DNA from: Acidobacteriota bacterium
Lineage (GTDB): Bacteria; Acidobacteriota; UBA6911; RPQK01; JACQSY01
NCBI GenBank assembly: GCA_016211085.1
Contig: JACQSY010000043.1
Coordinates: 22,845 to 86,844, forward strand
Length of the DNA: 64,000 nucleotides
Direction of reading: 5' to 3'
The position numbers and the translations under genes are program-made. Shown here piece after piece: positions 8,929 to 50,472 of this stretch. The notes beneath the pieces were generated by a model. The model saw only the letters and a program-made list of their open reading frames with translations, did not search any database and was not told where the DNA came from. Every line of letters starts with the position of its first letter. Position 1 is the first letter of the stretch.

Positions 8929-9669
8929 CTAAATCAATCCTGCCCGCTCCGCGCGGCGAATAGCTTCCAGGCGTGTGTGTGCATCTAATTTCTGCAGCAG
9001 ATGCTGCACGTGGTTGTTGACGGTGGTACGGCTAATATGAAGTTCTTGGGCGATTGACGCCGTTGACGCCCCTCGAGCCAGCCAGCATAAGACTTCCCGT
9101 TCACGGGGCGTGAGTTCCACGTGACGGGCTGCAGCCCGGCGAGAATGGATCAGTGCCCGTACCTGCTCCCCGGAAAGATCGGTCTGGGAAATAAGGAAAT
9201 CGCGAACTAACAGTTCCAAACGTTTTGGAAAGTCGACAGAATGAATGATGTGGATCGAGTACGGTGGCCTGGAATTCCCTGCCTTGACAAGCAGGACTGA
9301 AATGTTGCACCAGATCTTTCTCGCCCGAGTGTTTACCTGGATGTCGGAGTTGGCAACCGGCCGCTTATTGTGAACTTCCCGGCGAATAACACAGTCGGCT
9401 GAGCATATTGGTCCGCTCTCATCTGTTCCCCCCACCAGCTCCCAACAGGGTTGGCCTATAGCCTCTGAAGCTGCGATGCCGAAAAAAATCTCGGCCGCCT
9501 GATTCCAGGCCACAATCAACCCAGAAACATCGATAGCGAACGCGGGGTCAGCGGTGCTTTCGATGAGTTCGCGAATTTCTTCAAGGTGCATCTCGAACCC
9601 ATCACAGAAATGATGTTGATTGATTATTGCCTTCACAGCCGGAAAGCGCAAGTCTGAAATCAGATTCAC
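8929..9669 (-). CDS. PAS-domain LuxR-family transcriptional regulator
   Basis: C-terminal LuxR HTH (LTPREREVLCWLARGASTASIAQELHISRTTVNNHVQHLLQKL); N-terminal PAS-like fold; divergent from molybdoenzyme operon. Confidence 0.7.
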   Translation of the reverse strand: MNLISDLRFPAVKAIINQHHFCDGFEMHLEEIRELIESTADPAFAIDVSGLIVAWNQAAEIFFGIAASEAIGQPCWELVGGTDESGPICSADCVIRREVHNKRPVANSDIQVNTRARKIWCNISVLLVKAGNSRPPYSIHIIHSVDFPKRLELLVRDFLISQTDLSGEQVRALIHSRRAAARHVELTPREREVLCWLARGASTASIAQELHISRTTVNNHVQHLLQKLDAHTRLEAIRRAERAGLI

Positions 9670-9741: not shown

Positions 9742-11403
9742 ATGAGTCTTGATCTTACAACTAAGTCGAAGCAGCACCCGAGTTGTTCGGCAAGAAAACT
9801 CATCGTCTTTGGTTTGCTTGGGAGTGTTTTTTCAGCTGGTTGCATGCGGCCGCGGGAAGGCAGCCAAGTAACAGGAAATCTGACACCTGAGACAAGGACG
9901 GCGTCTTCTGCGAGATTATTGGAACTCGGGAAAACCGCCTACGAGAAGAACTGTGCTCCGTGTCATGGGTTGCAAGGGGATGGGCAGGGAGCAGCTTCTT
10001 ATCTGCTCTATCCGAAGCCTCGCAATTTCATCCTAGCTAAATACCGGCTTGTGTCCACCTGGGACTACGCTCCCGCCGATGAAGATCTCTTCCGAACGAT
10101 TTCGCGTGGCATGCCGGGCTCAGCCATGCCCTCCTGGGCGCATCTGCCGGAAGAGACGCGATGGGGGTTGGTTCATTACATAAAGTCATTTGCGCAAAAC
10201 CCCATTGAGATTGGCCCGGACCGTCAACCCACAGGTGTGGGCGACACACCTAGCGGCCGCATCAAGGTCCCCCCTGAGACACCCTATACCCCAGAAGCGA
10301 AGGTGCGCGCCCAGCAACTCTTTAAGACCAGTTGTGCTCCTTGCCATGGGCCGGAGGGCAAAGGAGATGGTCAGCAGGAACAAGAGGATTCGGAAGGTTT
10401 CCGCCTTCGGCCCCGCGACTTGACAGCGGGCATTTTTAAAGGGAGTCCTGACCCTTCAGAAGTGTATAAGCGGATTGTGGCCGGGCTGCCGGGTTCACCT
10501 ATGCCCGCAAGCCTGCATCTCTACGGGAATGCCGCGTGGGACGTAGTCCATTTCATTCTGGAGATGTCGAGCCCCGAACAAAGAGCAAGGATGGAGATGA
10601 AGCGTTTTCAGATTCCCGCCACGCGTGTTGACAGACTGCCTGACCATCCGGGTGACTCCATCTGGAGAAGCACCCCTGCGGTTAACCTGCACCTCATGCC
10701 GTTATGGTGGCGCAATAACCGTCCCGAAGTCGCTGCCGTGCAGGCCCTGCATAATGGGAAGGAAATCGCGATTCAGATAATCTGGTCCGATCCAACGCAC
10801 GATCATACCGCGATGCGACCTCAGGACTTCAGGGACGCCGCGGCTATTGAGTTTTCGCTGACTCCTGATCCTCCGTTCTTTGGCATGGGCGGGGAAGCCG
10901 CACATGCGGAGTCGGTTAATATCTGGATGTGGAAGTCCGAACGGCAGGCCGACCTGGAGCCTGCTTTTCAGGATCTGGACAAGATTTACCCCAACATCGG
11001 TATTGATTCGTACCCCAACCTGCTGCGTTCACCCCTGGAGCAGCCGACGCGCCGTGCGCTGACGCTCGAGTCAGACCCAACGTTTGTTACCGGCTGGGGG
11101 ACAAAAAACATCGTCTCGGACCCTACGCGGAAGAGTTCAGTTGAAGACCTTGCCGCTAGGGGATTTGGCACTCTCAAGGCTCGTCCCATGGTTGACCAGC
11201 AGGTGACCGCCACCGGAGTGTACATGACTGGATCTTACCGCGTTGTTTTCAGAAGGACGCTGGCCGGTAAAGGAAAGAGCGCAGTGTCACTTCGACCCGG
11301 AAGCCGAATTCCTGTCAGCTTTGCTGTTTGGGACGGCAGCGCTGGCGATCGTGACGGTAAAAAGTCGATCACAATTTGGCAAGAGCTTTCTATATCGAAT
11401 TAG
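9742..11403 (+). CDS. gamma-type subunit: probable lipoprotein with two class-I cytochrome c domains fused to an EB_dh (ethylbenzene-dehydrogenase gamma/NxrC/DdhC-like) heme-b domain
   Basis: Signal + candidate lipobox (VFSAGC); two CAPCHG heme-c motifs each in a cyt c551/c552-like context; C-terminal ~230 aa resembles EB_dh domain (…MPLWWRNNRPEVAAV…IWSDPTHDH…GMGGEAAH…NIWMWKSE…). Confidence 0.55.
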   Translation: MSLDLTTKSKQHPSCSARKLIVFGLLGSVFSAGCMRPREGSQVTGNLTPETRTASSARLLELGKTAYEKNCAPCHGLQGDGQGAASYLLYPKPRNFILAKYRLVSTWDYAPADEDLFRTISRGMPGSAMPSWAHLPEETRWGLVHYIKSFAQNPIEIGPDRQPTGVGDTPSGRIKVPPETPYTPEAKVRAQQLFKTSCAPCHGPEGKGDGQQEQEDSEGFRLRPRDLTAGIFKGSPDPSEVYKRIVAGLPGSPMPASLHLYGNAAWDVVHFILEMSSPEQRARMEMKRFQIPATRVDRLPDHPGDSIWRSTPAVNLHLMPLWWRNNRPEVAAVQALHNGKEIAIQIIWSDPTHDHTAMRPQDFRDAAAIEFSLTPDPPFFGMGGEAAHAESVNIWMWKSERQADLEPAFQDLDKIYPNIGIDSYPNLLRSPLEQPTRRALTLESDPTFVTGWGTKNIVSDPTRKSSVEDLAARGFGTLKARPMVDQQVTATGVYMTGSYRVVFRRTLAGKGKSAVSLRPGSRIPVSFAVWDGSAGDRDGKKSITIWQELSISN

Positions 11404-11454
11404 GCGCAGGCGCCCGTGGAGGCTGAAGGGTCGTCTTAAGAAGGAGAATGATCC

Positions 11455-14400
11455 ATGCCGGATGAATCTCAGAAAACCGATCGCAAATTAACCCGGCGTA
11501 ACTTCTTGCAATGGGTTGGAGTTGGAACAGGAGGCGCCCTATTGGCACTGGAGCCCGGGTGTCGTTTATTGCAACCTGTGGTTACGGACGAAAATCCCCT
11601 TCACAGAGAGGTGGCCCGTGATTGGGAAAAAATTTATCACGACCAGTACAAATATGATCATTTCTTCGACTGGGTGTGCTCCCCTAATGACACCCACGCA
11701 TGCCGCATTCGCGCCTATGTCCGGAACGGAATTGTCGTGCGCTCTGGTGAGACTTACAACTACCACCAATACGCAGATCTCTATGGTAACCACGCTACCA
11801 GCAATTGGGAACCTCGACAATGCGCCAAAGGTTACACCTTTCACCGTGTCATTTACGGTCCCTACCGCCTGCGCCACCCCATCGTCCGGAAGGGGTGGAA
11901 GGCCTGGGAGGAGGCGGGATTTCCCGAGCTGACGCCTGAACTCCGGTCCAAATATATGTTTGACGCACGCGGTCAGGACGAGTTCATTCAGATCACCTGG
12001 GAAGATGCTTTCCACTGTATCGCCAAAGCACTGGTGGCTATTTCGAAGCGGTATAGCGGCGAGAACGGGAAGAAAAGGTTGCTGGCCCAAGGCTACCAGC
12101 CCGAGATGGTTGAAGCCGCGGGCGGGGCCGGCACCCGATGCATCAAGATGCGGGGAGGCATGGGGCTGCTCGGGGTGTTAGGGAAATACGGAATGTACCG
12201 GTTTAACAACTCCCTGGCATTGTTGGATTCGCTCATCCGAAACGTCGGTCCCGACAAGGCGCTGGGAGGCCGGAACTGGTCCAACTACACTTGGCACGGC
12301 GATCAGGCGCCAGGTCACCCTTGGATCCATGGCCTGCAGGCATCGGACTGCGACTTCAACGACCTTCGATTCTCCAAGCTGATTATCATGGACGGCAAGA
12401 ATCTGGTCGAAAACAAATTGACCGATTCGCACTGGTTTATCGAGTGCATGGAGCGGGGCGGTAAGGTCGTCGTCATTGCACCCGAATACGGCCCTCCGTC
12501 GACGAAGGCTGACTACTGGGTCCCCATCCGTCCGGCTACCGACGCGGCACTCTGGCTTGGCATCACCCGACTCCTGATTGAACGCAAGGCTTATGACGAA
12601 GACTTTCTAAAACGATTTACTGATTTCCCCCTATTGGTGCGCACCGACAACCTACGGCGGTTGCGCGCGCACGAAGTTTTTGCCAACTACAAGAGTTCCC
12701 TGTCGCCCGATGGCCCCTCGATGAAAATTCAGGGCCTGACGCAGCAACAACACGAGGCGCTCGGTGATTTTGTTATCTGGGAGACCGAAGCGAACGCGCC
12801 CCGGCCCGCGACCCGAGATCAAGTCGGAAAATCAATGCCCTTCAAACCGGCCCTGGAAGGGAGTTGGCAAGTGCGTCTGGCTAAAGGCGGCACAGTACGA
12901 GTGGCCACACTATGGACGTTGTATCAAACACACTTGAAGGACTACCACCTCGACACCGTCTGTGAAATCACTCGAGCGCCTCGCCATCTGATTGAGCAAC
13001 TGGCCGACGACATTGCTACCATGAAGCCGGTAGCCATCCATCAGGGAGAGGGGATTAATCACTGGTTCCACGCCACGGAAATGAATCGCGCCGCCTATCT
13101 TCCCTTGATGCTCACGGGCAACATTGGCAAACCGGGAGCGGGGTGCCACACCTGGGCGGGCAATTATAAGGCAGCCGTTTTCCAGGGATCCGCTTGGTCT
13201 GGTCCAGGTTTTAAGGGCTGGGTGGCCGAAGACCCCTTCCATCCCAATTTGGACCCGAATACTTCCGGCAAGGACATCCCCGCCCACGCTTACACGAAGG
13301 ACGAGGAGCCGGCTTATTGGAACCATGGTGATCTTGCTCTGGTAGTGGACACTCCCAAGTTTGGCCGCAAGAATTTCACCGGAACGACGCACATGCCCAC
13401 CCCTACCAAGGCGATACTCTTTACCAACGTCAACCTGATTAACAATGCCAAGTGGGCCTACGGGGTAATCAAAAACGTCAACCCCAACGTCGAGATGATC
13501 GTTTCCTTCGACATCCAAATGACCGCCTCGATCGAGTACTCCGACATCGCCCTGCCTGCCAATTCCTGGCTCGAGTTTGAAGATCTGGAAGTGACGGCCA
13601 GTTGTTCCAACCCGTTTCTGCAAATCTGGAAAGGCGGCATCACGCCGGTATTCAACAGCAAGGATGATCTGACGATCATTGCCGGCATCGCCGCAGCTCT
13701 CTCGGAGGTAATGGGGGACAAACGCTTTCGGGACTATTTTAAGTTCGAACTGGAAGGAAAGCGAAGTGTCTACCTGCAGCGATTGCTGGATTCTTCCACG
13801 ACCACTGCCGGCTACAAAGTCGAAGACGTCATGGCTGGAAAGTACGGCCCTCCGGGAGCCGCGCTGATGAACTTCCGCACCTATCCGCGGATCCCGTTTT
13901 ACGAGCAGATTCACGATAGCGAACCATTCCAGACCGACACCGGCCGCCTGAATGCCTATGCGGATATCCCAGAAGCAATCGAATACGGCGAAAACTTCAT
14001 CGTGCACAGAGAGGGACCGGAAGCAACCCCCTATCTCCCCAATGTCATTATCAGCAGCAATCCGTACGTACGACCGGAAGACTACGGGATCTCCCCAAAA
14101 GCTGAGCACTGGGACGCGCGCACCATTCGAAATATCAAGATGCCGTGGAGCCAAGTCAAGGAGACCCGGAACTTTCTGTGGGAGAAAGGCTACCAGTTCT
14201 ATTGCCTGACGCCCAAGACTCGCCACCGGGTCCACAGTTCTTGGTCCAATGTCGACTGGCACATGCTCTACGACTCAAACTTCGGCGACCCGTTCCGCCT
14301 GGACAAGCGTGCCCCATCCGTCGGAGAGCATCAGTTGCACATCAATCCTGCCGCGGCTCGAGATCTAGGAATCAACGATGGCGACTACGTCTTTGTCGAC

Positions 14401-14916
14401 GCTAATCCAGCCGATCGTCCTTACCTGAATGCCAACCCCGCGGATCCTTTCTACCGGGTATCGCGTTGCATGCTGCGGGTTAAGTACAATCACGCCTACC
14501 CGTACAACGTCGTGATGATGAAGCACGCGCCCTTTATCGCTACCGAGAAGAGCGTCAAGGCGCATGAGACCCGTCCGGACGGCAGGGCCCTATCGGAAAA
14601 CACTGGCTACCAGGCCAACCTGCGATATGGCTCGCAGCAGTCCATTACGCGCAACTGGCACATGCCTATGCACCAGACCGACAACCTGTTTCACAAGGCC
14701 AAGGTCTCCATGGCATTCATTTTCGGCGGCGAAGCCGACAACCACGCGCTCAATACAGTTCCCAAAGAGACCCTGATCCGGATCACCAAGGCGGAAGATG
14801 GAGGGCTCGGTGGAAAAGGGATTTGGAAGCCAGCCACCACCGGACATACACCGGATAACGAAAGCGAAACAATGAAGCTTTATCTGGAAGGTGGACTGAC
14901 TAGGGTGAGCAAATGA
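11455..14916 (+). CDS. Tat-exported molybdopterin oxidoreductase alpha subunit, NarG/NxrA-like (type II DMSO reductase family)
   Basis: Twin-arginine signal (TRRNFLQWVGVGTGGALLA); 1153 aa; N-terminal FS0 region aligns to NarG HGVNCTGSCSWKIYVKNG as CSPNDTHACRIRAYVRNG (C-x3-D-x3-C) followed by downstream Cys (PRQCAKG); length and motifs match periplasmic NXR/pNAR lineage. Confidence 0.85.
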   Translation: MPDESQKTDRKLTRRNFLQWVGVGTGGALLALEPGCRLLQPVVTDENPLHREVARDWEKIYHDQYKYDHFFDWVCSPNDTHACRIRAYVRNGIVVRSGETYNYHQYADLYGNHATSNWEPRQCAKGYTFHRVIYGPYRLRHPIVRKGWKAWEEAGFPELTPELRSKYMFDARGQDEFIQITWEDAFHCIAKALVAISKRYSGENGKKRLLAQGYQPEMVEAAGGAGTRCIKMRGGMGLLGVLGKYGMYRFNNSLALLDSLIRNVGPDKALGGRNWSNYTWHGDQAPGHPWIHGLQASDCDFNDLRFSKLIIMDGKNLVENKLTDSHWFIECMERGGKVVVIAPEYGPPSTKADYWVPIRPATDAALWLGITRLLIERKAYDEDFLKRFTDFPLLVRTDNLRRLRAHEVFANYKSSLSPDGPSMKIQGLTQQQHEALGDFVIWETEANAPRPATRDQVGKSMPFKPALEGSWQVRLAKGGTVRVATLWTLYQTHLKDYHLDTVCEITRAPRHLIEQLADDIATMKPVAIHQGEGINHWFHATEMNRAAYLPLMLTGNIGKPGAGCHTWAGNYKAAVFQGSAWSGPGFKGWVAEDPFHPNLDPNTSGKDIPAHAYTKDEEPAYWNHGDLALVVDTPKFGRKNFTGTTHMPTPTKAILFTNVNLINNAKWAYGVIKNVNPNVEMIVSFDIQMTASIEYSDIALPANSWLEFEDLEVTASCSNPFLQIWKGGITPVFNSKDDLTIIAGIAAALSEVMGDKRFRDYFKFELEGKRSVYLQRLLDSSTTTAGYKVEDVMAGKYGPPGAALMNFRTYPRIPFYEQIHDSEPFQTDTGRLNAYADIPEAIEYGENFIVHREGPEATPYLPNVIISSNPYVRPEDYGISPKAEHWDARTIRNIKMPWSQVKETRNFLWEKGYQFYCLTPKTRHRVHSSWSNVDWHMLYDSNFGDPFRLDKRAPSVGEHQLHINPAAARDLGINDGDYVFVDANPADRPYLNANPADPFYRVSRCMLRVKYNHAYPYNVVMMKHAPFIATEKSVKAHETRPDGRALSENTGYQANLRYGSQQSITRNWHMPMHQTDNLFHKAKVSMAFIFGGEADNHALNTVPKETLIRITKAEDGGLGGKGIWKPATTGHTPDNESETMKLYLEGGLTRVSK

Positions 14917-14966
14917 GGGACAACGAATGCCTGATCTTTATCCGGCTCGGAAGTAGAGGGAGAAAA

Positions 14967-15329
14967 ATGCCCTACAACGATCCTGATCCGAAGGATCCGA
15001 CGATGCTGGTTGGCGTTGAAATACCTGCTGAGCAGGATGCAGACCTCGAAATGGCATACGCTTTCGCTGAAGAGTTCGCCGCCATGGGGTTTTCGGAAAA
15101 GCGTCTGCTGTCTCTCTTCCACCAGCCCTTTTATTCCGCTGCTTATCGCGCATGCAAGAACTTGGGCGAGGAGAAAATCAAGTCCGTCATTCGGGAAGCT
15201 CTCCATGTGTGGGGCGGTTCCCGGTTCGTCATCCAAGAGAAGCGCGACAGCCTCGACACATCGAGGGATAGTCATGGAGCAGCAGAAACCGGGCCGCGCA
15301 TCGGAAGAAATGAGGCCGGCTATGAGTAA
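14967..15329 (+). CDS. small acidic hypothetical protein between alpha and beta subunit genes
   Basis: 120 aa ORF from MPYNDPDPKD; stop overlaps the beta-subunit start in an ATGAGTAA arrangement (translational coupling); no recognised domain. Confidence 0.35.
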   Translation: MPYNDPDPKDPTMLVGVEIPAEQDADLEMAYAFAEEFAAMGFSEKRLLSLFHQPFYSAAYRACKNLGEEKIKSVIREALHVWGGSRFVIQEKRDSLDTSRDSHGAAETGPRIGRNEAGYE

Positions 15330-16590
15330 AGTGTACAACTGGCAACTCGGGCGTGAAATGAGTTACCCGTATGAGGCGAAATTTCCCGAACGTCAGTTCG
15401 CCTTTGTGTTCAACATCAACCGTTGCATTGCCTGTCAAAGCTGCACCATGGCATGCAAATCCACGTGGACCTTCAGCAAAGGCCAGGAACACATGTGGTG
15501 GGCTAATGTGGAGACGAAGCCCTACGGCGGCTACCCCCAGTTCTGGGATGTAAAGATCCTTGAATTGCTGGAGAAGGCAAACCCTGAAGGTCAGCGATGG
15601 ACCGGCCCGACTTCCGACAATGCAACGTCGTTGTATGGACGCTTTGCCGGACAGACCATTTTTGAGGCGGCGGAAAAAACACTGGACCCTCCAAGTTCTC
15701 GCGTCTTGGGATATCTGCCTGCGGACGAGGAGTGGAACTCACCGAATATTTATGAAGACAACCCGGTAGGCAAGAGGGGCGTCCGCGACAGGCTGCACGA
15801 GACGGGCGAACAACTTCCGGTCCATAATACTTGGTTCTTCTACCTGGCGCGGATCTGTAATCACTGCACCTACCCGGCTTGCCTAGCCGCTTGCCCGCGC
15901 AAGGCGCTCTACAAACGGCCGGAAGACGGCATCGTGCTGCTGGATCAAAGCGAGTGCCGCGGCTACCGAAAGTGCGTAGAGGCGTGTCCCTACAAGAAGA
16001 CCATGTATCGTGGCAACACCCGTGTCTCCGAGAAGTGCATCGCTTGTTATCCGCGAGTCGAGGCGACCGACCCCGAGAGCGAAGGCGAGCCAATGGAGAC
16101 CCGATGCATGACGGCCTGCATTGGGCAGATCCGGATGCAAGGATTGGTGAAACTGAACCCTGACGGAACTTGGGCGGAGGACCGGTACCACCCCCTGTAT
16201 TATTTGGTTCAAGTGGCCAAAGTAGCCTTGCCACTTTATCCCCAGTTGGGGACTTCGCCGAACGGCTACTACATCCCGCCGCGCTGGGTTCCCCGGGAAT
16301 ATTTGCGGCAGATGTTTGGCCCTGGAGTCGACCGCGCATTGGAACGTTATAACAATCCCGACCGGGAACTGCTGGCAGTGTTGCAGCTGTTCCGGCGCTC
16401 CAACCGGATTATTTACCGTTATGAAATCAAGGAAGGTCCGCTGGTTTATGAAGGCACCTATCGGGGCAGACCCGTACGCATTTACAACGATACAGCGATC
16501 GCGTTTGGCAAAAACGGCACGGAACTGTTTCGCACCAGCGTGGAGGAACCAGTGCATGTGCGTCCCGGCAAGCACCAGAATTCGATTTGA
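15322..16590 (+). CDS. iron-sulfur beta subunit, NarH/NxrB-like (four Fe-S clusters)
   Basis: Ferredoxin-type Cys clusters CIACQSCTMAC, CNHCTYPACLAACP, CRGYRKCVEACP, CIACYPRV…CMTAC in NarH order; start at MSKVYNWQ (alternative upstream Met at 15274). Confidence 0.85.
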   Translation: MSKVYNWQLGREMSYPYEAKFPERQFAFVFNINRCIACQSCTMACKSTWTFSKGQEHMWWANVETKPYGGYPQFWDVKILELLEKANPEGQRWTGPTSDNATSLYGRFAGQTIFEAAEKTLDPPSSRVLGYLPADEEWNSPNIYEDNPVGKRGVRDRLHETGEQLPVHNTWFFYLARICNHCTYPACLAACPRKALYKRPEDGIVLLDQSECRGYRKCVEACPYKKTMYRGNTRVSEKCIACYPRVEATDPESEGEPMETRCMTACIGQIRMQGLVKLNPDGTWAEDRYHPLYYLVQVAKVALPLYPQLGTSPNGYYIPPRWVPREYLRQMFGPGVDRALERYNNPDRELLAVLQLFRRSNRIIYRYEIKEGPLVYEGTYRGRPVRIYNDTAIAFGKNGTELFRTSVEEPVHVRPGKHQNSI

Positions 16591-16619
16591 CAACCCCGCA
16601 GACTGAAGGAACCAAAGGA

Positions 16620-17447
16620 ATGACTCCCAGTGACGATCAACGCCTTGGGGACGAAGCTCTCTGTCGCAGTGTTTTTTACAATCTGCTGTCGCTGGCATTG
16701 CACCCCCCGACAGCGGAAATTTGCAGTGCCATAAAATCAGAAAGTGCGGACCTTGCCCTGCGAGAGGCTGCGGCTGTACTCGACGCGTCCCCCATAGATC
16801 AGACTTCCACAGGGGGGTCCGAAAAGGGGAATCGCCGTCCGGATCTGGGCTCGCGGGTTGATCAATGGATCGCGACTTTTGACGGTCTCTCCCTGCAACT
16901 GTTGCTCTCTTCATATGGACAGCTGTTCGGCCATACAACCAGAGGGCCGGTTTGCCCTTATGAGACGGAATACGGTCAGGAAGCAGTTTTTCAGCAGCCG
17001 CGTCAGCTGGCGCAAATTACAGGGTTTTATCGCGCCTTCGGACTTGCCACACGAAGCGCTGAGCGCGAGCGGCCCGATCACATCAGCTGCCAACTGGAAT
17101 TCCTACAGTTTCTTTCCCGCAAGGAGGCCTATGCGCTGGGATGCGGAGGTTTCCCGATGCTGGAGGAGACCCGGAAGGCGACTCGACTCTTCCTGCGGGA
17201 TCACCTGGGCCGGTATGGAAGGGCCTTTGCGCATATGCTTCGAGAACACGAGCCGGAAGGCTTTTTCGGCAGACTGGCCGACCTGATGTTCGACTTTATT
17301 ACTTTCGAATGCCGGCGCCTGCGAATTGAGGCGGGTCCGCCCCTGCTGCAGCTCCGGACGGACGGGGAGGGCCATGTGCCAATGGCCTGCGGCAGCGGGG
17401 AATCCGAACTGGTGCAGCTGGAAACTCCCTTTTCATCCGCCAGGTGA
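16620..17447 (+). CDS. TorD/NarJ/DmsD-family redox enzyme maturation chaperone (delta subunit)
   Basis: TorD-like signature region (…CRSVFYNLLSLALHPP…); positioned after alpha/beta as in narJ/serD/ddhD; start at ATG preceded by AAGGA (a TTG at 16587 overlapping the beta stop is an alternative). Confidence 0.65.
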   Translation: MTPSDDQRLGDEALCRSVFYNLLSLALHPPTAEICSAIKSESADLALREAAAVLDASPIDQTSTGGSEKGNRRPDLGSRVDQWIATFDGLSLQLLLSSYGQLFGHTTRGPVCPYETEYGQEAVFQQPRQLAQITGFYRAFGLATRSAERERPDHISCQLEFLQFLSRKEAYALGCGGFPMLEETRKATRLFLRDHLGRYGRAFAHMLREHEPEGFFGRLADLMFDFITFECRRLRIEAGPPLLQLRTDGEGHVPMACGSGESELVQLETPFSSAR

Positions 17448-17555
17448 GACCGAAAAAGATGCCCGAGCTTCAACTTGCCGTGGTTTGAGCGCCGAAGCGG
17501 CAGTAGGAGACTACGAAGAGAGGCCCTTGCGGCAATTGGAGATAAAGTTGACGCA

Positions 17556-18794
17556 ATGAAAGTTCATGACTCTGGCGGAAACCTCGCTCTTTCGTGCCGC
17601 ATCGACTACGATGCGCGACTGGTGGAAGAGGCCGTCCTGTTGAGGATGGCCAGCCATCCTGAAGAAGCCAGATTCCGCAAGAGCCGCAACCCAATCTATG
17701 AAGTGGTTGATAGCGAACAACGAGAAAAGCGCTTTCGAGAATTCCACAGCGAATGGTTTGTTCGCCTCAGGATGGGAGAGCCTATTGTCGCCGCGCTTGG
17801 GGAGCAACCGACGCTTGGCGAAGACGTCCTCATCTGTTGTGTTGTTCGGGCGCTGTCCTCTTACGAAGAAGGGGCAGATCTGCACCAGCGGCGCAGTAAC
17901 GGAGGCGTGGGAGAACAGGGTCATCCGAACCGTGACAGGTTGAGAACGAATGTTCGGTCTCATTGCGTGGGGCCATCCACCAACGAGGCTCTCTCAGGTT
18001 CGATGAAAACACCCCGCCAGGACGCACATATGTATGCGAGCACGCTTCGGACACAGACTTCCCAAGACACTTCCATTGCAGGGGACAGTTCTAAGACGGA
18101 AAACGCCTCGAACCGGGCCGCCGCGGAAAAGATCATCGTAGTTAAACTCCAGCCTGCCTCCTTTTTAAATTCCGATCGCCTGCGGGCATTCCTCCGGCAC
18201 GAATTTATGCATATTGTCGATATGCTGGATCCCCGGTTTGGCTACCAGCCGGTGTTGCCCAAATCGGAATACGGCCCGGCTTATGACCATCTGGTGAAAG
18301 ATCGATACGGGGTTCTCTGGGACACCTGGATCGACGGACGATTGCAACGCCGAGGCTGGGCAGGCGGCCACGTTTGCGGGCAGCGACGCGCGGAGTTCAT
18401 CGCGACTTTTCCCATGTGCGGGGATGAGGTGGAAGAAAAATTTGCGCAGTTCTTCAACGCCGATTTCCTGACTCACGGGGCTTTGGCGGCATTCGCTTTA
18501 AATCCAGGGGGGGGCTCCAAGGTAGGAGTTGGGCGGGGCCGGGCGCAACCGTGTCCGCTCTGCCGATTCCCTACATCAGATTTCATCGATGGCACACGCC
18601 AGTTAACAAAGGAGGCAAAACAACAGATCGCGGTGGATTTTCCCAACTGGCGACCCGGGCACGGACTTTGCCGTCAATGTTCCGATTTGTACTTGGCCCG
18701 CGGATTATCCCAGAGCGCGGAAGCTGGGCTGCCGGGAACCCAGCGCCGCCAGGCGGATAACCTCGCCGCCTATGAAATCAATAAAAAAGCCTGA
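17556..18794 (+). CDS. hypothetical protein with HExxH motif and C-terminal CxxC…CxxC zinc-ribbon
   Basis: 412 aa from MKVHDSGG (RBS GGAGA 14 nt upstream); contains RHEFMHIVD (HExxH) and CPLCRF…CRQCSDLY; no family recognised. Confidence 0.45.
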   Translation: MKVHDSGGNLALSCRIDYDARLVEEAVLLRMASHPEEARFRKSRNPIYEVVDSEQREKRFREFHSEWFVRLRMGEPIVAALGEQPTLGEDVLICCVVRALSSYEEGADLHQRRSNGGVGEQGHPNRDRLRTNVRSHCVGPSTNEALSGSMKTPRQDAHMYASTLRTQTSQDTSIAGDSSKTENASNRAAAEKIIVVKLQPASFLNSDRLRAFLRHEFMHIVDMLDPRFGYQPVLPKSEYGPAYDHLVKDRYGVLWDTWIDGRLQRRGWAGGHVCGQRRAEFIATFPMCGDEVEEKFAQFFNADFLTHGALAAFALNPGGGSKVGVGRGRAQPCPLCRFPTSDFIDGTRQLTKEAKQQIAVDFPNWRPGHGLCRQCSDLYLARGLSQSAEAGLPGTQRRQADNLAAYEINKKA

Positions 18795-18872: not shown

Positions 18873-19271
18873 GTGATCTTTTCAACGAAGTGCCAACACG
18901 CCATTCGGGCATTGACCTACCTGGCCCGGTCGGGCAAGTCCTGCGCCCGAGAAATCAGTCGCAATCAGAAGTTGCCCTACCATTTTACTGGAAAGATACT
19001 TCAGGTCCTGCAGAAGACGGGCTTTGTGAGATCGGTAAGAGGTGCCGGTGGAGGGTTTGTTCTTACGCGGCCGGCAAGCAAAATCCGTCTTATCGACGTC
19101 TGGTCAGCTATAGATGGAACTGAGAAATTTGAGGGGTGCCTCTACGGTTTGAACCAATGCTCAGAGCTGAAACCCTGTCCTTTGCATGAGAATTGGACAA
19201 TCATGCGCCGTCACATAGAAAAGAACTTGAGCAACCAGAGCATTGCAGATCTGACTTACCCCAAGACATGA
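18873..19271 (+). CDS. Rrf2-family transcriptional regulator (NsrR/IscR-like, three-Cys Fe-S ligand set)
   Basis: N-terminal Rrf2 wHTH (MIFSTKCQHAIRALTYLA…ISRNQKLPYHFTGKILQVLQKTGFVRSVRGAGGGFVLTRPA) and C-x6-C-x5-C cluster (CLYGLNQCSELKPC); GTG start. Confidence 0.8.
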   Translation: MIFSTKCQHAIRALTYLARSGKSCAREISRNQKLPYHFTGKILQVLQKTGFVRSVRGAGGGFVLTRPASKIRLIDVWSAIDGTEKFEGCLYGLNQCSELKPCPLHENWTIMRRHIEKNLSNQSIADLTYPKT

Positions 19272-24293: not shown

Positions 24294-26330
24294 ATGAAAA
24301 TTAAAGGACGCTTTCAAATCTGGGTCGTCGGCTCAGTAATGGTCCTTGGATTCCTCAGTGTCTTTCTTGCCGCCCGCCTGGAAGTGGATCAACAGTATGG
24401 TCCGCTCGATAAGGAATTTTATTTATCTGATACCCAAGTCCAATTCATCAGGCCGGGTTTGGAGTTTCAAATTCTTGAAGTGACCATTGGAGCCGATCGC
24501 AAGCCGGTCGTAAAGATTTCACTCAAGGATCCCAAAGGCTTGCCTCTGGACCGCGATGGCATTTTTACGCCGGGACCGATTTCAACTACGTTCGTTATTG
24601 GCTACATTCCTGCTAACGCCACTCAGTACACGAACTACAATATTCGGAATGTTGCCAGCACGATAACCGGAAAAACCGCCACTCAGGCTACCAGTGATTC
24701 CGGGGGAAAATGGGCCAAGGTGGAAGACGGCGTGTACACGTACACTTTTGGAAATGCGCTGCCGGCAGGCTTCGACGGAAGCCTCACCCACACCATTGCT
24801 GCTTATGCCCGGCGCGACCTGACGGAATTCAATTTGGATCGCTACGTAAAGAACGCCGTATTTCACTGGGTGCCCAACGGGGGGGAAGTGAAGCAATGGC
24901 GCGATGTCGTTCGCACTGCGAATTGTAACGAGTGCCATAACCCGCTTGCTCTGCACGGAGGGGCGCGGCAAGAAGTAGGGTTGTGCATCCTGTGCCATCA
25001 GCCGCAGACCTCCGACCCTGATACAGGTAACACCGTGGATTTCAAGGTCATGATTCACAAGATCCACATGGGTCCCAATCTCCCCAGCGCCAAGGCTGGA
25101 AAACCGTACCAGATTATCGGAAACCAGGGTAGGGTATTTAACTTTTCCGAACACGTGCTCTTTCCGCAAGACATCCGTAATTGTGAAAAATGTCATAAGA
25201 ACGCCACCCAGGGCCTTGCGTACCTGCTGAAACCATCCGCAGCCGCCTGCGGCTCCTGCCATGATGACGTGAACTTTGCTACGGGTGTAGGCCACCCTGG
25301 CGGACCCCAGGCTTCCGACAATCTGTGCGCCACCTGTCATATTCCCGAGGGGGAGCTGGAGTTTGACGCCTCCATTAAAGGTGCGCACAAGATCCCAGCG
25401 AAATCAGCAGAGCTGAAGGGCCTTCAGTTGAAGATTTTAGGGGTCAGCAATACGGCGCCCGGCCAAAGTCCCACAGTTCTCTTTACGGTTACTGAAAAGG
25501 ATGGAACGGCTGTTGCTCCGAGTTCTCTCAACTTCTTACAGCTGGTGCTAAGCGGGCCGACCAAGGACTATGAGAATCTGATCATTGAGCCGGCACGCGA
25601 TGCGGTTCCCACGGCGGATGGCTACACGTACACTTTCAAAGGGAAAATTCCCGAAAACGCCAAGGGGAGCTTCATGGTTGGCGGGGAAGCTTATCGCATG
25701 GTCACGCTGGCTGCTGGAACTACCAAGGAACGACAGGTCCGCGAAACCGCCAATAACCCCGTGCAGTACGTTGCCGTCACGGATGCGAACGCAGTACCGC
25801 GCCGCCAGGTGGTTGCCACCGCCAACTGCAACCGTTGTCACGATGAGATGGTGATGCACGGAACCATCCGGCACGATCCGGAGAAATATTGCGTCGTCTG
25901 TCATATTCCATCAGGTACGGACGCGGCACGCCGGCCTGCAGACCAAATGCCGCCTCAATCTCGTGATTTCCGCTTCATGGTGCACCGCATCCACACGGGT
26001 GCGGATTTGACGCGGGAGTTCTCAATTTACGGCTTTGGCGGAGCCCTGGAGGCGAACGAGATTAACTTCCCGGGCGACCGGCGCGATTGCGAAAAGTGCC
26101 ACGTGAATAACTCCTATCGGCTGCCTCTGGCATCCGGCCTGCAACCGGTGCCGGTGCAGCGGGAATTCTTTACTCCCTATCCTCCCACGACAGCCGCGTG
26201 CCTGGGCTGCCATGACGGCGAAGCCGCGGCCGCTCATGCTTACACCATGATCACGCCGTTTGGTGAAGCGTGCGCTGCGTGCCACGGTACGGGTAGAGAA
26301 TTCGCTGTCGAGAGGGTTCATGCCCGTTAA
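24294..26330 (+). CDS. MtrC/OmcA-like decaheme c-type cytochrome (two pentaheme halves)
   Basis: Ten CxxCH motifs (CNECH, CILCH, CEKCH, CGSCH, CATCH | CNRCH, CVVCH, CEKCH, CLGCH, CAACH) split 5+5 over 678 aa; N-terminal hydrophobic signal/anchor. Confidence 0.65.
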   Translation: MKIKGRFQIWVVGSVMVLGFLSVFLAARLEVDQQYGPLDKEFYLSDTQVQFIRPGLEFQILEVTIGADRKPVVKISLKDPKGLPLDRDGIFTPGPISTTFVIGYIPANATQYTNYNIRNVASTITGKTATQATSDSGGKWAKVEDGVYTYTFGNALPAGFDGSLTHTIAAYARRDLTEFNLDRYVKNAVFHWVPNGGEVKQWRDVVRTANCNECHNPLALHGGARQEVGLCILCHQPQTSDPDTGNTVDFKVMIHKIHMGPNLPSAKAGKPYQIIGNQGRVFNFSEHVLFPQDIRNCEKCHKNATQGLAYLLKPSAAACGSCHDDVNFATGVGHPGGPQASDNLCATCHIPEGELEFDASIKGAHKIPAKSAELKGLQLKILGVSNTAPGQSPTVLFTVTEKDGTAVAPSSLNFLQLVLSGPTKDYENLIIEPARDAVPTADGYTYTFKGKIPENAKGSFMVGGEAYRMVTLAAGTTKERQVRETANNPVQYVAVTDANAVPRRQVVATANCNRCHDEMVMHGTIRHDPEKYCVVCHIPSGTDAARRPADQMPPQSRDFRFMVHRIHTGADLTREFSIYGFGGALEANEINFPGDRRDCEKCHVNNSYRLPLASGLQPVPVQREFFTPYPPTTAACLGCHDGEAAAAHAYTMITPFGEACAACHGTGREFAVERVHAR

Positions 26331-26379
26331 TCTCAGGTTGCGGGCGGGGGGCTGCAGAGCCGCGAACATTACCCGCGAT

Positions 26380-27270
26380 ATGATCCCCCCGCTCGTTTTT
26401 CATAATCGCGGTTCTGTAGCGTTTCTTTGGGGACCGGTCACAGTGCTGTTACTACTGATCCTGGCGCTGGGCGCCGGTCCCGCCCGCGCTCAGGCGCCGC
26501 CGGAAAAAGTCGGTAACGAGACTTGCCTCAGCTGTCACGATGTGGAACCGACGCTCTCCAGAACCCCTCATGCTGCCAAAGAATGTGAAAACTGCCACGG
26601 GCCGGGAAGCACTCACGTTGAAAACGGCGGAGATCTGAGCCTGAGCTTTCGGGCCAATCCAGCCCCATGGGCCGTGACGCAGTGTCTTTCCTGCCATCAG
26701 TCCAACACACACCTCACCGCCTTTCGTGCTTCCGCTCATGGAAGAAATTCCGTCGCATGCGTTTCCTGCCACCAGGTTCACCAGGAGCGTGCGGAGTTTG
26801 GACTCCTGAAAAAAGACCAGGCTGCTGTTTGCACGGATTGTCACCCGGCGACTCGGGCAGAGCTGCGCAAACCGTTCCATCACCCGGTTCTGGAAGGGGC
26901 AATGCGTTGCAGCGACTGCCATCAGCCGCACCTGGAAGAACGCAGGCCGCTGCGACGCCTCGTGCATGGATCTGACGATAGTTGCCTCTCGTGTCACTCT
27001 GATAAGAAAGGTCCTTTTATTTTCGAGCACGCTGCGGTAACGGTGAGTGGCTGTGAAACATGCCATCAGCCGCACGGCTCGGTCAATGCGAAGCTGCTCA
27101 GACGAACGCAAGTGCACCAACTTTGCCTGGAATGTCATAGCCGGACCCCGGGAGTGGCCGGCAAACAGCCTCCCGCATTTCACGATATAAGGACCGCGCG
27201 TTTCCGGAACTGCACGACCTGCCACCGTGAAATCCATGGTTCAAATGCCAGCCGGATCTTCTTCAGATAA
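26380..27270 (+). CDS. MtrA/PioA/MtoA-like periplasmic decaheme c-type cytochrome
   Basis: Ten CxxCH in ~300 aa (CLSCH, CENCH, CLSCH, CVSCH, CTDCH, CSDCH, CLSCH, CETCH, CLECH, CTTCH), signal peptide; size/heme density of MtrA. Confidence 0.7.
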   Translation: MIPPLVFHNRGSVAFLWGPVTVLLLLILALGAGPARAQAPPEKVGNETCLSCHDVEPTLSRTPHAAKECENCHGPGSTHVENGGDLSLSFRANPAPWAVTQCLSCHQSNTHLTAFRASAHGRNSVACVSCHQVHQERAEFGLLKKDQAAVCTDCHPATRAELRKPFHHPVLEGAMRCSDCHQPHLEERRPLRRLVHGSDDSCLSCHSDKKGPFIFEHAAVTVSGCETCHQPHGSVNAKLLRRTQVHQLCLECHSRTPGVAGKQPPAFHDIRTARFRNCTTCHREIHGSNASRIFFR

Positions 27271-27281
27271 TCGAGGACCCT

Positions 27282-32898: not shown

Positions 32899-32913
32899 CA
32901 GAAGGGCAATTTT

Positions 32914-33597
32914 ATGTCACGTTGGGGAATGATCATTGATCTCGACAAATGCACAGCCTGTCAGGCCTGTGTGGTGGCGTGTAAGGTAGAGAATAACATT
33001 CCATCTCCTCCTGAGGGTGAAGCGCTTAAGAATCGCACCATCTCGTGGATGAAGCTGATTCCACTGCGGAGCGAAGGTTCTGAATCAGAGCGCACGACCT
33101 ACGCACCGGTCGCGTGCCAGCATTGCGACAATCCGCCGTGCATCAAGGTTTGTCCGGTGGATGCGACCAATATTTCCGACGAAGGAATCGTACGCCAGGT
33201 GTATTCGCGCTGCATCGGATGCCGTTACTGCACCAACGCATGCCCTTACACCGTGCGCTACTTCAATTGGTCTGCGCCGCAGTGGCCTGAAGAGAGCAAG
33301 TCTTACTTGAATCCGGATGTCTCTCTGCGGCCTAAAGGCGTGGTTGAAAAATGTACCTTCTGCAATCATCGTTTGCAGAAAGCAAAAGAAATCGCTCGCC
33401 TCGAAGAACGAGAGCTTCACAGCAGTGATTATGTGCCAGCTTGTGTGGAAATCTGCCCGGCCGACGCCTTGGTATTCGGCGACCTTGAAGACTCTGCCTC
33501 GGAAGTTTCCCAACTGGCTAGAAGCCCCCGCGCCTTCCGGCTGCAGGAAGATCTCGGGACAGAGCCCAAAGTAATTTATCTCAGCCAGGGAGAATAG
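32914..33597 (+). CDS. four-cluster 4Fe-4S ferredoxin-type subunit (PsrB/ActB2/QrcC-like)
   Basis: Cys clusters CTACQACVVAC, CQHCDNPPCIKVCP, CIGCRYCTNACP, CTFC…CVEICP. Confidence 0.8.
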   Translation: MSRWGMIIDLDKCTACQACVVACKVENNIPSPPEGEALKNRTISWMKLIPLRSEGSESERTTYAPVACQHCDNPPCIKVCPVDATNISDEGIVRQVYSRCIGCRYCTNACPYTVRYFNWSAPQWPEESKSYLNPDVSLRPKGVVEKCTFCNHRLQKAKEIARLEERELHSSDYVPACVEICPADALVFGDLEDSASEVSQLARSPRAFRLQEDLGTEPKVIYLSQGE

Positions 33598-33600
33598 AAG

Positions 33601-34971: not shown

Positions 34972-34991
34972 GAGCCAAGAGGCATTGATCG

Positions 34992-42564: not shown

Positions 42565-42668
42565 AAGCCCTCTCCAGGGTAAAGCCAAGAGCAGAGGGAT
42601 CTGTATTTGCGCCTTCAGGGGCTGATCGACCCGATAGCCTCTCGACTAAACAATCTCGAGGCAACTTG

Positions 42669-50468: not shown

Positions 50469-50472
50469 GCCA

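What the first reader, a model, noticed from the sequence alone, without database searches (positions are those of the whole stretch)
9742..18794. Periplasmic NXR/pNAR-type molybdoenzyme operon with non-canonical subunit set
Gene order is gamma(cyt c-EB_dh fusion) - alpha(Tat, NarG-like, 1153 aa) - small ORF - beta(NarH-like) - TorD-like chaperone - HExxH/Zn-ribbon protein. A Tat-exported NarG-type alpha of this length places the enzyme in the periplasmic nitrite-oxidoreductase / periplasmic-Nar branch of type-II DMSO reductases, which outside nitrifiers and anammox is poorly characterised. Neither the substrate (nitrate, nitrite, chlorate, selenate, hydrocarbon) nor the direction (oxidase versus reductase) can be read from sequence. 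The accessory genes do not match the canonical narGHJI, serABDC or ebdABCD layouts.
Basis: partly seen in the sequence, partly recalled or inferred. Interest (0 to 1): 0.8.

Follow-up and report, generated by a model that had tools for sequence, protein, structure and literature searches.

The report
Periplasmic nitrite/nitrate oxidoreductase (NXR-type) operon
This is an intact six-gene operon for a periplasmic, cytochrome-c-linked nitrite/nitrate oxidoreductase of the same kind as in anammox and Nitrospira bacteria; the same six-gene module is spread across many non-nitrifying phyla, and whether it makes or consumes nitrate there is still unknown.

Summary
The six genes are real, intact and at the stated coordinates. 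Three start codons need small corrections.

The catalytic subunit is not an unplaced type-II molybdoenzyme. It aligns full-length with the crystallised Kuenenia NxrA (1744 bits, 62% identity). It keeps the Mo-ligand Asp, the substrate Asn and the 3Cys/1Asp FS0 site. It falls inside the Nitrospira/Nitrospina/anammox NXR clade with 100% bootstrap support (NJ tree). Beta keeps all 15 Fe-S cysteines. Gamma keeps the Met/Lys haem-b ligands.

The subunit set called non-canonical is standard for this subclade. The same gene order recurs in essentially every related locus long enough to show it, across more than ten phyla. Every gene has a homologue in a Nitrospinota MAG's NXR cluster, and five of six have one in an anammox cluster.
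- The HExxH/Zn-ribbon protein corresponds by synteny to kustd1701.
- The TorD-like gene corresponds by synteny to kustd1702.
- The gamma subunit is a Kustc0457-like dihaem cytochrome c fused to NxrC, with a lipoprotein signal in this copy.

The substrate pair is almost certainly nitrite/nitrate. Direction cannot be read from sequence; I lean to nitrate reduction in this metal-respiring-looking Acidobacterium.

Published MAG surveys already report this clade as a putative novel NXR. I rate it a new member of a known kind, of moderate interest.

The parts
9742..11403 (+). Gamma subunit (NxrC-like fusion). It has a signal peptide with a lipobox (…VFSAG-C34), a dihaem cytochrome c domain (CxxCH at C71 and C198) and an EB_dh-type haem-b domain.
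   Evidence: Pfam finds EB_dh plus two Cytochrom_C stretches. The N-terminal domain aligns end to end with Kustc0457 (6H5L_B, 154 bits). The C-terminal domain matches Kuenenia NxrC (7B04_C, 92 bits), with haem ligands M155/K305 aligned to window M382/K541. Both CxxCH motifs, M382 and K541 are invariant in 58 homologues. A lipobox is present in 22 of 58, including this copy.
11455..14916 (+). Alpha subunit (NxrA-type): Tat-exported Mo-bisMGD catalytic subunit with the FS0 cluster.
   Evidence: It scores 1744 bits full-length against Kuenenia NxrA 7B04_B, at 62% identity. C75, N78, D79, C83 and D283 correspond to Kuenenia C67, N70, D71, C75 and D275. It sits in the NXR clade with 100% bootstrap support. 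It is 100% identical to an NCBI protein from an Acidobacteria MAG.
14967..15329 (+). Small conserved acidic protein (120 aa; conserved core about 85 aa). It has no signal peptide, no Cys and no known family. Its function is unknown; the guess is an assembly factor or a small subunit.
   Evidence: It is conserved between alpha and beta in about 40 loci, and in the Nitrospinota MAG at 39% identity (E 4e-11). Single-sequence and profile searches find no Pfam, NCBIfam or PDB family. A single-sequence AF2 model is helical but of low confidence.
15322..16590 (+). Beta subunit (NxrB-type) carrying four Fe-S clusters. It has no signal peptide and presumably co-exports with alpha.
   Evidence: It scores 578 bits full-length against Kuenenia NxrB 7B04_A. 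Identity is 63% and all 15 Cys are conserved.
16587..17447 (+). TorD/NarJ-family redox-enzyme maturation chaperone (type-II DMSO reductase type).
   Evidence: Pfam Nitrate_red_del scores 2.6e-17 and TIGR03482 scores 76 bits, below its cut-off. It is syntenic and homologous with the chaperone in anammox and Nitrospinota NXR clusters.
17475..18794 (+). Conserved NXR-associated cytoplasmic protein 'X' with an HExxH motif and a C-terminal 4-Cys zinc ribbon. This copy carries an extra low-complexity insert of about 100 aa. It is probably a maturation factor.
18873..19271 (+). Rrf2-family transcriptional regulator, a possible regulator of the operon.
   Evidence: Pfam Rrf2 scores 8.8e-29 and TIGR00738 scores above its cut-off. 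An Rrf2 gene lies beside the module in 13 other loci from several phyla.
8929..9669 (-). Divergently transcribed PAS-LuxR regulator. Its link to the operon is uncertain.
   Evidence: Pfam finds PAS and GerE domains. It is only 72 nt from the gamma start. It is not conserved next to the module elsewhere.

Best explanation
The region encodes a complete nitrite:nitrate oxidoreductase of the Nitrospira/Nitrospina/anammox (periplasmic NXR) type.

Assembly. In the cytoplasm, NxrA receives Mo-bisMGD and its FS0 cluster with help from the TorD-like chaperone. The HExxH/Zn-ribbon protein X and the small acidic protein probably also help. NxrA and NxrB are then exported together through Tat. The gamma subunit is exported separately by Sec. 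In this copy it is probably lipid-anchored to the outer face of the cytoplasmic membrane.

Electron path. Electrons run between the Mo site and FS0, the four Fe-S clusters of NxrB, the Met/Lys-ligated high-potential haem b, and the two c-type haems of the fused Kustc0457-like domain. From there they pass to or from the periplasmic and membrane c-type cytochrome network. The operon has no quinol-oxidising membrane anchor.

Shown: gene content, homology, cofactor-ligand conservation, and synteny across phyla.

Inferred: nitrite/nitrate as the substrate pair (high confidence), the maturation roles of X and the small protein, and the lipid anchor.

Direction is not determinable from sequence. My lean is about 55-60% that this Acidobacterium uses it mainly as a dissimilatory nitrate reductase fed from quinol via cytochromes c. 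I put about 30-35% on nitrite oxidation. The enzyme is probably reversible, like the Kuenenia one.
For: - Identity of the enzyme. Full-length matches to 7B04 chains A, B and C, with all cofactor ligands conserved.
- Clade membership: NJ trees with 100% bootstrap for the NXR clade and for the window subclade. The next relatives are only 41-45% identical.
- Conserved six-gene module: 80 loci, more than ten phyla; anammox and Nitrospinota clusters.
- Gamma architecture.
- No membrane anchor gene in any of the loci.
- X and TorD behave like assembly factors. Their Kuenenia counterparts by synteny, kustd1701 and kustd1702, are transcribed but not detected in the proteome, and they are absent from the purified NXR (PMC6423088, PMC8387239).
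- Lean to nitrate reduction:
  - The module occurs in anaerobic lineages such as Syntrophobacteraceae and Omnitrophota.
  - In vitro, Kuenenia NXR reduces nitrate at 1.5 umol/min/mg and oxidises nitrite at 0.061 umol/min/mg.
  - The window neighbourhood holds MtrC/MtrA decahaems, NrfD-type complexes, a NapC/NirT-type cytochrome and pyruvate:ferredoxin oxidoreductase, but no terminal oxidase or CO2-fixation genes.
Against: - No activity data exist for any member of this subclade.
- All the closest characterised enzymes come from nitrite oxidisers or anammox bacteria. The high-potential Met/Lys haem b and the c haems suit acceptance of +430 mV electrons, so nitrite oxidation is equally compatible.
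- Published MAG studies lean towards calling this clade NXR (PMC10732223). They also report high nxrA transcription in low-carbon soils (PMC8141241).
- Only 64 kb of the genome was visible, so oxidases or CO2-fixation genes may lie elsewhere.
- The trees are neighbour-joining, not maximum likelihood.
- The 'Nitrospira-type' label rests on primer sequences recalled from memory.
- The lipid anchor is a motif-only prediction.
- The zincin-like fold of X is only weakly supported.
Confidence: 0.85

Rival explanations
1. The host is a true, previously unrecognised nitrite-oxidising Acidobacterium. The operon works in the oxidative direction as its energy-conserving NXR, passing electrons through the fused dihaem domain to a terminal oxidase.
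For: - The closest characterised relatives are NXRs.
- The gamma subunit has a high-potential haem-b ligand set and c haems.
- Cytochrome c + haem-b 'alternative NxrC' fusions are known in Nitrospina (PMC3578206).
- The literature hypothesises nitrite oxidation for this clade.
Against: - The window has no oxidase, CO2-fixation or reverse-electron-transport genes nearby. Its neighbourhood looks anaerobic and metal-respiring.
- The same module sits in many lineages regarded as anaerobes or heterotrophs.
- No recurrent oxidase neighbours were found within 8 kb on either side in 80 loci.
Confidence: 0.2
2. The enzyme acts on a different substrate, such as chlorate, perchlorate, selenate, DMS or a hydrocarbon, as the first reader left open.
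For: All subunits score below NCBIfam curated cut-offs, so no equivalog name is assigned. Type-II enzymes are known to change substrate with few residue changes (general knowledge).
Against: - Scores are about ten-fold higher to NxrA than to PcrA, EbdA or NarG.
- The catalytic Asp, the Asn and the surrounding motifs are identical to Kuenenia NXR.
- The window retains 82% of the columns that are invariant in anammox plus Nitrospira-type NxrA, against 39-63% for the outgroups.
Confidence: 0.05
3. The cluster is a decaying, non-functional relic of horizontal transfer.
For: The module has clearly moved between phyla: alpha is 75-86% identical across at least twelve phyla.
Against: - All six ORFs are intact and every cofactor ligand is conserved.
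- Even the small ORF and X are conserved at amino-acid level.
- Gene spacing is tight, as in an operon.
Confidence: 0.01

Closest known systems
Kuenenia stuttgartiensis NXR (NxrABC, PDB 7B04; gene cluster kustd1699-1713)
   Same: Alpha, beta and the haem-b domain of gamma are homologous over their full length (62%, 63% and about 30% identity). The Mo-Asp, the Asn, the 3Cys/1Asp FS0 site, the 15 Cys of beta and the Met/Lys haem b are all shared. Both have a TorD-like chaperone and an X (HExxH/Zn-ribbon) gene in the cluster, and both enzymes are soluble or periplasmic with no NarI anchor.
   Different: - Gene order is C-B-TorD-X-A in the anammox contig, against C'-A-small-B-TorD-X here.
- Anammox NxrC lacks the fused dihaem c domain; Kustc0457 is a separate protein encoded elsewhere.
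- The anammox cluster has no small ORF.
- This window has no NXR-T, bd-like oxidase, Usp or further cytochromes, and no anammoxosome or hydrazine genes.
Nitrospina NXR with 'alternative NxrC' proteins (Lucker et al. 2013), and the Nitrospinota MAG cluster L082/L083
   Same: The Nitrospinota MAG has the same six genes: X, NxrA, small ORF, NxrB, TorD and a cytochrome c + EB_dh fusion. Fusions of cytochrome c sites with a haem-b domain are described for N. gracilis alt_NxrC2-4.
   Different: The order is rotated, with X first and the fusion last. Alpha is only 63% identical. N. gracilis itself has nxrABC with a plain haem-b NxrC.
Nitrospira NXR (nxrAB)
   Same: It belongs to the same NXR clade, with a periplasmic Tat-exported alpha.
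   Different: Alpha is only 54% identical. In those loci nxrA and nxrB are directly adjacent with none of gamma, the small ORF, TorD or X nearby. Calling those loci Nitrospira rests on primer sequences recalled from memory.
Selenate reductase SerABC, chlorate reductase ClrABC and ethylbenzene dehydrogenase (soluble periplasmic type-II enzymes)
   Same: It works like them: a Tat-exported alpha-beta pair, a soluble haem-b gamma of the EB_dh family, and electron exchange with c-type cytochromes rather than directly with quinol (Ser with cytochrome c4, as cited in PMC3578206).
   Different: Alpha is distant (187 bits to PcrA, 165 bits to EbdA). Here the cytochrome c partner is fused to gamma, and the accessory genes X and the small ORF are absent from ser, clr and ebd operons.
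Archaeal and bacterial periplasmic Nar (pNar: NarGH with NarC/NarB)
   Same: Both are outward-facing nitrate/nitrite enzymes of the NarG family with a Tat signal.
   Different: A haloarchaeal representative is only about 39% identical and lies outside the clade. This operon has no NarC (cytochrome b) or NarB (Rieske) genes.

Membership tests
Periplasmic NXR (Nitrospira/Nitrospina/anammox type) | Alpha subunit groups with NxrA of known nitrite oxidisers and anammox bacteria, to the exclusion of other type-II enzymes | tested here: met
   It scores 1744 bits full-length to 7B04_B. The NJ clade has 100% bootstrap support and includes Kuenenia, an anammox contig, Nitrospira-type and Nitrospinota sequences. 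Outgroups are at most 45% identical.
Periplasmic NXR (Nitrospira/Nitrospina/anammox type) | Twin-arginine signal on alpha (periplasmic orientation) | tested here: met
   The motif TRRNFLQWVG aligns with KLTRRAFLQ of Kuenenia. The Tat HMMs score just under threshold, so this rests on the motif and on homology.
Periplasmic NXR (Nitrospira/Nitrospina/anammox type) | Mo-ligand Asp, substrate Asn and the 3Cys/1Asp FS0 site | tested here: met
   D283, N78, C75, D79 and C83 correspond to Kuenenia D275, N70, C67, D71 and C75 (residue roles from PMC8387239).
Periplasmic NXR (Nitrospira/Nitrospina/anammox type) | NxrB with ligands for three [4Fe-4S] clusters and one [3Fe-4S] cluster | tested here: met
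   All 15 Cys of Kuenenia NxrB are conserved, at 63% overall identity.
Periplasmic NXR (Nitrospira/Nitrospina/anammox type) | EB_dh-type haem-b gamma subunit with Met/Lys ligation | tested here: met
   M382 and K541 align with Kuenenia NxrC M155 and K305 and are invariant in 58 homologues.
Periplasmic NXR (Nitrospira/Nitrospina/anammox type) | Catalyses nitrite oxidation (and nitrate reduction) in vivo or in vitro | not testable with these tools
   No biochemical or physiological data exist for this subclade. The literature states that direction cannot be assigned.
Periplasmic NXR (Nitrospira/Nitrospina/anammox type) | Host has a nitrite-oxidising or anammox lifestyle (oxidase or hydrazine genes, CO2 fixation) | tested here: inconclusive
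   No such gene is in the 64-kb window. The rest of the genome was not visible.
Membrane-bound cytoplasmic NarGHJI | NarI dihaem-b membrane anchor, cytoplasmic alpha without a Tat signal, and alpha passing the narG equivalog model | tested here: not met
   There is no NarI-like gene in the operon or in related loci. A Tat motif is present. TIGR01580 scores 158 bits against a cut-off of 1084.
Ser/Clr/Pcr/Ddh/Ebd group (TIGR03479 DMSO_red_II_alp) | Alpha reaches the curated subfamily score and groups with these enzymes | tested here: not met
   TIGR03479 scores 335 bits against a cut-off of 985, and EbdA 176 against 2000. PcrA scores 187 bits and EbdA 165 bits in PDB.
pNar (NarGH plus NarC/NarB) | Cytochrome-b NarC and Rieske NarB partners; alpha groups with archaeal or Thermus pNar | tested here: not met
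   No such genes are in the operon. The haloarchaeal representative P0375 is 39% identical and falls in the outgroup.

The most novel reading that the evidence does not exclude
The fusion of a Kustc0457-type dihaem cytochrome to NxrC may act as a 'Rosetta stone'. It would identify this cytochrome family as the long-sought physiological electron partner of NXR-type enzymes, including in anammox bacteria, where Kustc0457 serves the nitrite-reducing HAO-like Kustc0458.

On this reading the six-gene module is a self-contained, horizontally mobile, quinone-independent nitrite/nitrate-to-cytochrome-c converter. In this Acidobacterium it lies 5.5 kb from an MtrC/MtrA-type extracellular electron conduit. 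It could therefore support enzymatic nitrate-dependent Fe(II) oxidation, or anaerobic nitrite oxidation with a high-potential extracellular acceptor such as Mn(IV).
Probability: 0.1. Interest if true: 0.8.

Novelty: new member of a known kind. Interest (0 to 1): 0.35.

Why it matters
NXR is the only known biological source of nitrate, and NXR-like genes are routinely counted as evidence of nitrite oxidation in metagenomes. At least about 600 species-level genomes from many non-nitrifier phyla carry close relatives of this alpha subunit. Every one of the 80 best-matching loci long enough to show it has the same six-gene module. If it oxidises nitrite, the guild of nitrate producers is far larger than the cultured one.

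The strictly conserved accessory genes are concrete handles for asking how NXR is assembled and where its electrons go. These are X (kustd1701 by synteny), the small protein and the fused Kustc0457-like cytochrome. This particular window adds one more member and does not settle the question.

Tried and rejected
- Promoter, terminator and sigma-54 scans around the operon gave nothing above chance.
- Small ORF: no family by single-sequence or profile search. The only 'hits' were designed helical repeats, which I take as compositional. The single-sequence AF2 model was too weak to search with.
- The link between the MtrCAB-like cluster and NXR is not conserved in any other locus, so I treat the adjacency as probably coincidental.
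- Recurrent neighbours that might reveal direction (Nir, Nrf, oxidases, NarK) were not found within 8 kb on either side. Only Rrf2, a radical-SAM gene, Moco-biosynthesis genes, a kustd1699-like protein and Crp/Fnr recur.
- Named Nitrospira NxrA sequences could not be obtained from the protein searches. I substituted loci fished with the Nitrospira nxrB primer pair, recalled from memory.
- The 50%-identity representative P0361 could not be assigned to an organism.
Full report
**The observation**

Six co-directional ORFs fill 9742-18794 with gaps of 27-51 nt or overlaps of 4-8 nt. Pfam and NCBIfam recognise four of them:
- a protein with two cytochrome c domains plus an EB_dh domain;
- a 1153-aa molybdopterin oxidoreductase with a TRRNFL twin-arginine motif;
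- a four-cluster ferredoxin-type subunit;
- a TorD/NarJ-type chaperone.

The 138-aa ORF and the 439-aa protein match no family. Every NCBIfam hit is far below its curated cut-off, for example TIGR03479 at 335 bits against 985 and narG at 158 against 1084.

Three coordinates need correction. Beta starts at 15322, not at the TTG at 15010. The small ORF's conserved start is the ATG at 14967. NCBI calls the last gene from 17556.

**What the enzyme is**

Against solved structures the picture is unambiguous.
- Alpha matches Kuenenia stuttgartiensis NxrA (7B04_B) over residues 11-1151 at 1744 bits. It scores 187 bits to perchlorate reductase, 165 to ethylbenzene dehydrogenase and 121 to E. coli NarG.
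- Beta matches NxrB at 578 bits.
- The C-terminal half of gamma matches NxrC.

Global identities to Kuenenia are 62% for alpha and 63% for beta.

The residues that Chicano et al. (PMC8387239) name as functional are all present.
- In alpha: the Mo ligand Asp275 (window D283), Asn70 (N78), and the unusual 3Cys/1Asp FS0 ligands C67, D71 and C75 (C75, D79, C83).
- In beta: all 15 cysteines of NxrB.
- In gamma: the Met155/Lys305 haem-b ligands (M382, K541).

The window alpha retains 82% of the 554 alignment columns that are invariant among Kuenenia, an anammox contig and Nitrospira-type NxrA. Outgroup type-II enzymes retain 39-63%. The enzyme is therefore neither degenerate nor of open substrate. 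Nitrite/nitrate is by far the most likely couple.

**Phylogenetic position**

The protein is 100% identical to an NCBI entry from an Acidobacteria MAG on a 126-kb contig.

An exhaustive HMMER search of 50%-identity cluster representatives returns a single full-length representative at 62%. The next are at 44% (SAR202/Chloroflexi), 41% (Gaiellaceae) and 39% (haloarchaeal).

I built neighbour-joining trees with 50-60 bootstraps, rooted on those outgroups. They give:
- 100% support for an NXR clade containing Kuenenia, an anammox contig, a Nitrospinota MAG and Nitrospira-type sequences;
- 100% support for a nested subclade made of Omnitrophota and Planctomycetota sequences plus a tight multi-phylum core at 75-86% identity, which holds the window.

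Backbone nodes inside the NXR clade are weak.

Window identities are 62-64% to anammox, 63% to the Nitrospinota MAG and 54% to Nitrospira-type NxrA. The Nitrospira-type sequences were obtained by scanning metagenome contigs for the nxrB169f/638r primer pair. I recalled those primers from memory, so that label is a lead, not a certainty.

**The subunit set is not non-canonical**

A scan of one genome per GTDB species found at least 598 stretches encoding close relatives. The best 80 come from Acidobacteriota, Methylomirabilota, Binatia, Syntrophobacteraceae, Planctomycetota, Omnitrophota, Latescibacterota, Eiseniibacteriota, Gemmatimonadota, Marinimicrobia, Hydrogenedentota and others.

tblastn of the six window proteins shows the identical order in essentially every locus long enough to show it: gamma fusion, alpha, small ORF, beta, TorD, X.

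I retrieved two reference clusters.
- An anammox contig whose NxrA is 85% identical to Kuenenia reads Usp, NxrC, NxrB, TorD, X (317 aa), NxrA, then a CarboxypepD_reg-like protein. This is the kustd1706 to kustd1699 order read backwards. By synteny kustd1702 is the chaperone and kustd1701 is X.
- A Nitrospinota MAG reads X, NxrA, small ORF (98 aa), NxrB, TorD, then a cytochrome c + EB_dh fusion.

Homology is direct:
- X matches at 37% (2e-34) in the Nitrospinota MAG and at 29% (3e-22) in the anammox contig;
- the small ORF matches at 39% (4e-11) in the Nitrospinota MAG only;
- the gamma fusion matches full-length at 35% (1e-90).

This agrees with Lucker et al. 2013 (PMC3578206). They listed an NXR-associated set shared by Nitrospina, Nitrospira and Kuenenia that includes 'alternative NxrC' proteins with cytochrome c sites plus a haem-b domain, a TorD-like chaperone and a putative zinc-finger protein.

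Nitrospira-type loci, by contrast, have nxrA and nxrB adjacent with none of the other four genes nearby.

**The three less familiar parts**

*Gamma.* Its N-terminal domain aligns end to end with Kustc0457 (6H5L chain B, 154 bits). Kustc0457 is the dihaem cytochrome annotated beside the HAO-like Kustc0458, which Hu et al. suggest may be one of the main nitrite-to-NO reductases in Kuenenia; 6H5L is the Kuenenia HAO-like entry. All 58 gamma homologues have two CxxCH motifs and the invariant Met/Lys pair. In 22 of them, including the window (…VFSAG-C34) and all Acidobacteria copies in the set, a lipobox precedes the first haem site. The others have ordinary signal peptides. No membrane-anchor gene is present in any locus.

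*X.* The family is about 320 aa long. The window copy has an extra low-complexity insert of about 100 aa. A 120-sequence alignment shows an invariant E and second H of HExxH, a following D, an RYxxLW…GRL stretch, and the four zinc-ribbon cysteines. All database copies are 'hypothetical protein' without a Pfam family.

X has no signal peptide. In Kuenenia, kustd1701 and kustd1702 are transcribed but not detected in the proteome, and they are absent from the purified NXR. The best guess is therefore a cytoplasmic maturation factor working alongside TorD. This is an inference.

*The small protein.* It has a conserved acidic core of about 85 aa, predicted helical. D10, P11, E36, G41 and G67 are invariant. 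It has no Cys, no signal peptide and no detectable family. Its function is unknown.

**Mechanism and direction**

The cofactor chain can be read directly from conserved ligands: Mo-bisMGD, FS0, FS1-FS4, haem b, then two c haems. The operon lacks any quinol-oxidising subunit. Like Ser, Clr and Ebd enzymes, the complex must therefore exchange electrons with c-type cytochromes. Here the first such cytochrome is built in.

Kuenenia NXR is reversible in vitro. It reduces nitrate at 1.5 umol/min/mg and oxidises nitrite at 0.061 umol/min/mg.

Nothing in the sequence fixes the direction. Published surveys of the same clade in Planctomycetota, KSB1 and Verrucomicrobiota MAGs say the same (PMC10732223; bioRxiv 2020.05.19.103440; PMC12687941).

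Context gives a weak lean towards nitrate reduction in this organism.
- The window also encodes an OmcA/MtrC-family and a DmsE/MtrA-family decahaem, both above their NCBIfam cut-offs. It also holds two or three NrfD-type quinone-interacting complexes, a NapC/NirT-type cytochrome, pyruvate:ferredoxin oxidoreductase, FeoB and hemerythrins. It holds no oxidase or CO2-fixation genes.
- The module occurs in lineages generally regarded as anaerobes.
- Neighbours that recur across loci are regulators (Rrf2 in 13 other loci, Crp/Fnr), a radical-SAM gene, Moco-biosynthesis genes and a kustd1699-like protein. None is a Nir, Nrf or oxidase gene.

**Horizontal transfer**

Alpha is 75-86% identical across at least twelve phyla, and the tree mixes phyla. 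For example, Planctomycetota copies sit among Acidobacteria and Eiseniibacteriota, and Binatia copies sit with Syntrophobacteraceae. Both point to lateral spread of the whole module. Window GC content shows no clear island.

**Novelty and score**

The enzyme family, its periplasmic orientation, its presence in non-nitrifier MAGs and most accessory genes are already in the literature. The MAG itself is public. This analysis adds four things:
- the strict conservation of the six-gene module;
- the mapping of X and TorD onto kustd1701 and kustd1702;
- the recognition that the fused cytochrome is Kustc0457-like;
- the lipobox in a subset of gamma subunits.

These are useful leads, but no new kind of system is established. 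I rate it a new member of a known kind, interest 0.35.

The most novel reading not excluded has two parts. The fusion may reveal NXR's physiological electron partner. The module may also couple nitrite/nitrate to extracellular electron transfer in this Acidobacterium. I put this at about 10%. The MtrCAB adjacency is unique to this locus.

Noticed in passing
window 24294-29216: This looks like an MtrCAB-type extracellular electron conduit in an Acidobacterium. It has an OmcA/MtrC-family decahaem (494 bits vs cut-off 209) and a DmsE/MtrA-family decahaem (225 vs 192). A 644-aa ORF with no family follows and could be the porin. The cluster lies 5.5 kb downstream of the NXR operon. The adjacency was not seen in any other related locus.
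   Followed up: partly
window 30559-36185, 36762-38060 (-), 42486-45388: Two or three NrfD-containing quinone-interacting complexes lie here. One has a QrcB-like molybdopterin-type subunit, an FeS subunit, NrfD and a multi-cytochrome c. Another has a cytochrome c7-like protein, an FeS subunit and NrfD. They are candidate quinol:cytochrome c links for the anchor-less NXR.
   Followed up: no
window 57864-59366: A 500-aa multihaem protein with a NapC/NirT-family N-terminal region, a possible CymA-like quinol dehydrogenase.
   Followed up: no
window 18873-19271; also L002, L006, L007, L011, L020, L021, L027, L042, L045, L061, L068, L075, L076: An Rrf2-family regulator recurs immediately up- or downstream of the NXR module in several phyla. 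It resembles IscR and NsrR only weakly, so its ligand is unknown.
   Followed up: partly
window 17895-18150 (residues ~140-225 of X): The window copy of X carries a low-complexity, predicted-disordered insert of about 100 aa. It is absent from the typical 320-aa family members.
   Followed up: partly
L063:6880-7992: One Planctomycetales locus has a single ORF matching both the TorD-like chaperone and part of X. It may be a fusion or a frameshift/assembly artefact.
   Followed up: no
L005, L009, L036, L068, L069 (flanks); L081:12158-12886: A kustd1699-like secreted protein lies next to the module in about five loci but not in the window. It has a CarboxypepD_reg-like domain and conserved His, Cys, His and Met residues that might bind copper (my reading of the sequence, not tested). 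kustd1699 is a highly abundant protein in the Kuenenia proteome (PMC6423088).
   Followed up: partly
19 loci, e.g. L008:2675-3850, L054:15248-16240, L069:9204-11778: A radical-SAM protein (about 330-420 aa, C-terminal Cys-rich region) is the most frequent non-operon neighbour. MoaB/MogA-, MoeA- and MobB-like Moco genes often lie nearby.
   Followed up: no
window 47864-49816 and 50413-52377: Two tandem FeoB ferrous-iron transporters lie here, with hemerythrin-domain proteins at 60897-61439 (-) and 62693-63232.
   Followed up: no
L155 (JABAHS010148559.1): One locus caught with the Nitrospira nxrB primer pattern carries a divergent NxrA (56% to the window, 63% to Kuenenia). It also has fragments matching X and the gamma haem-b domain beside it, so it looks intermediate between the Nitrospira-type layout and the six-gene layout.
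   Followed up: no
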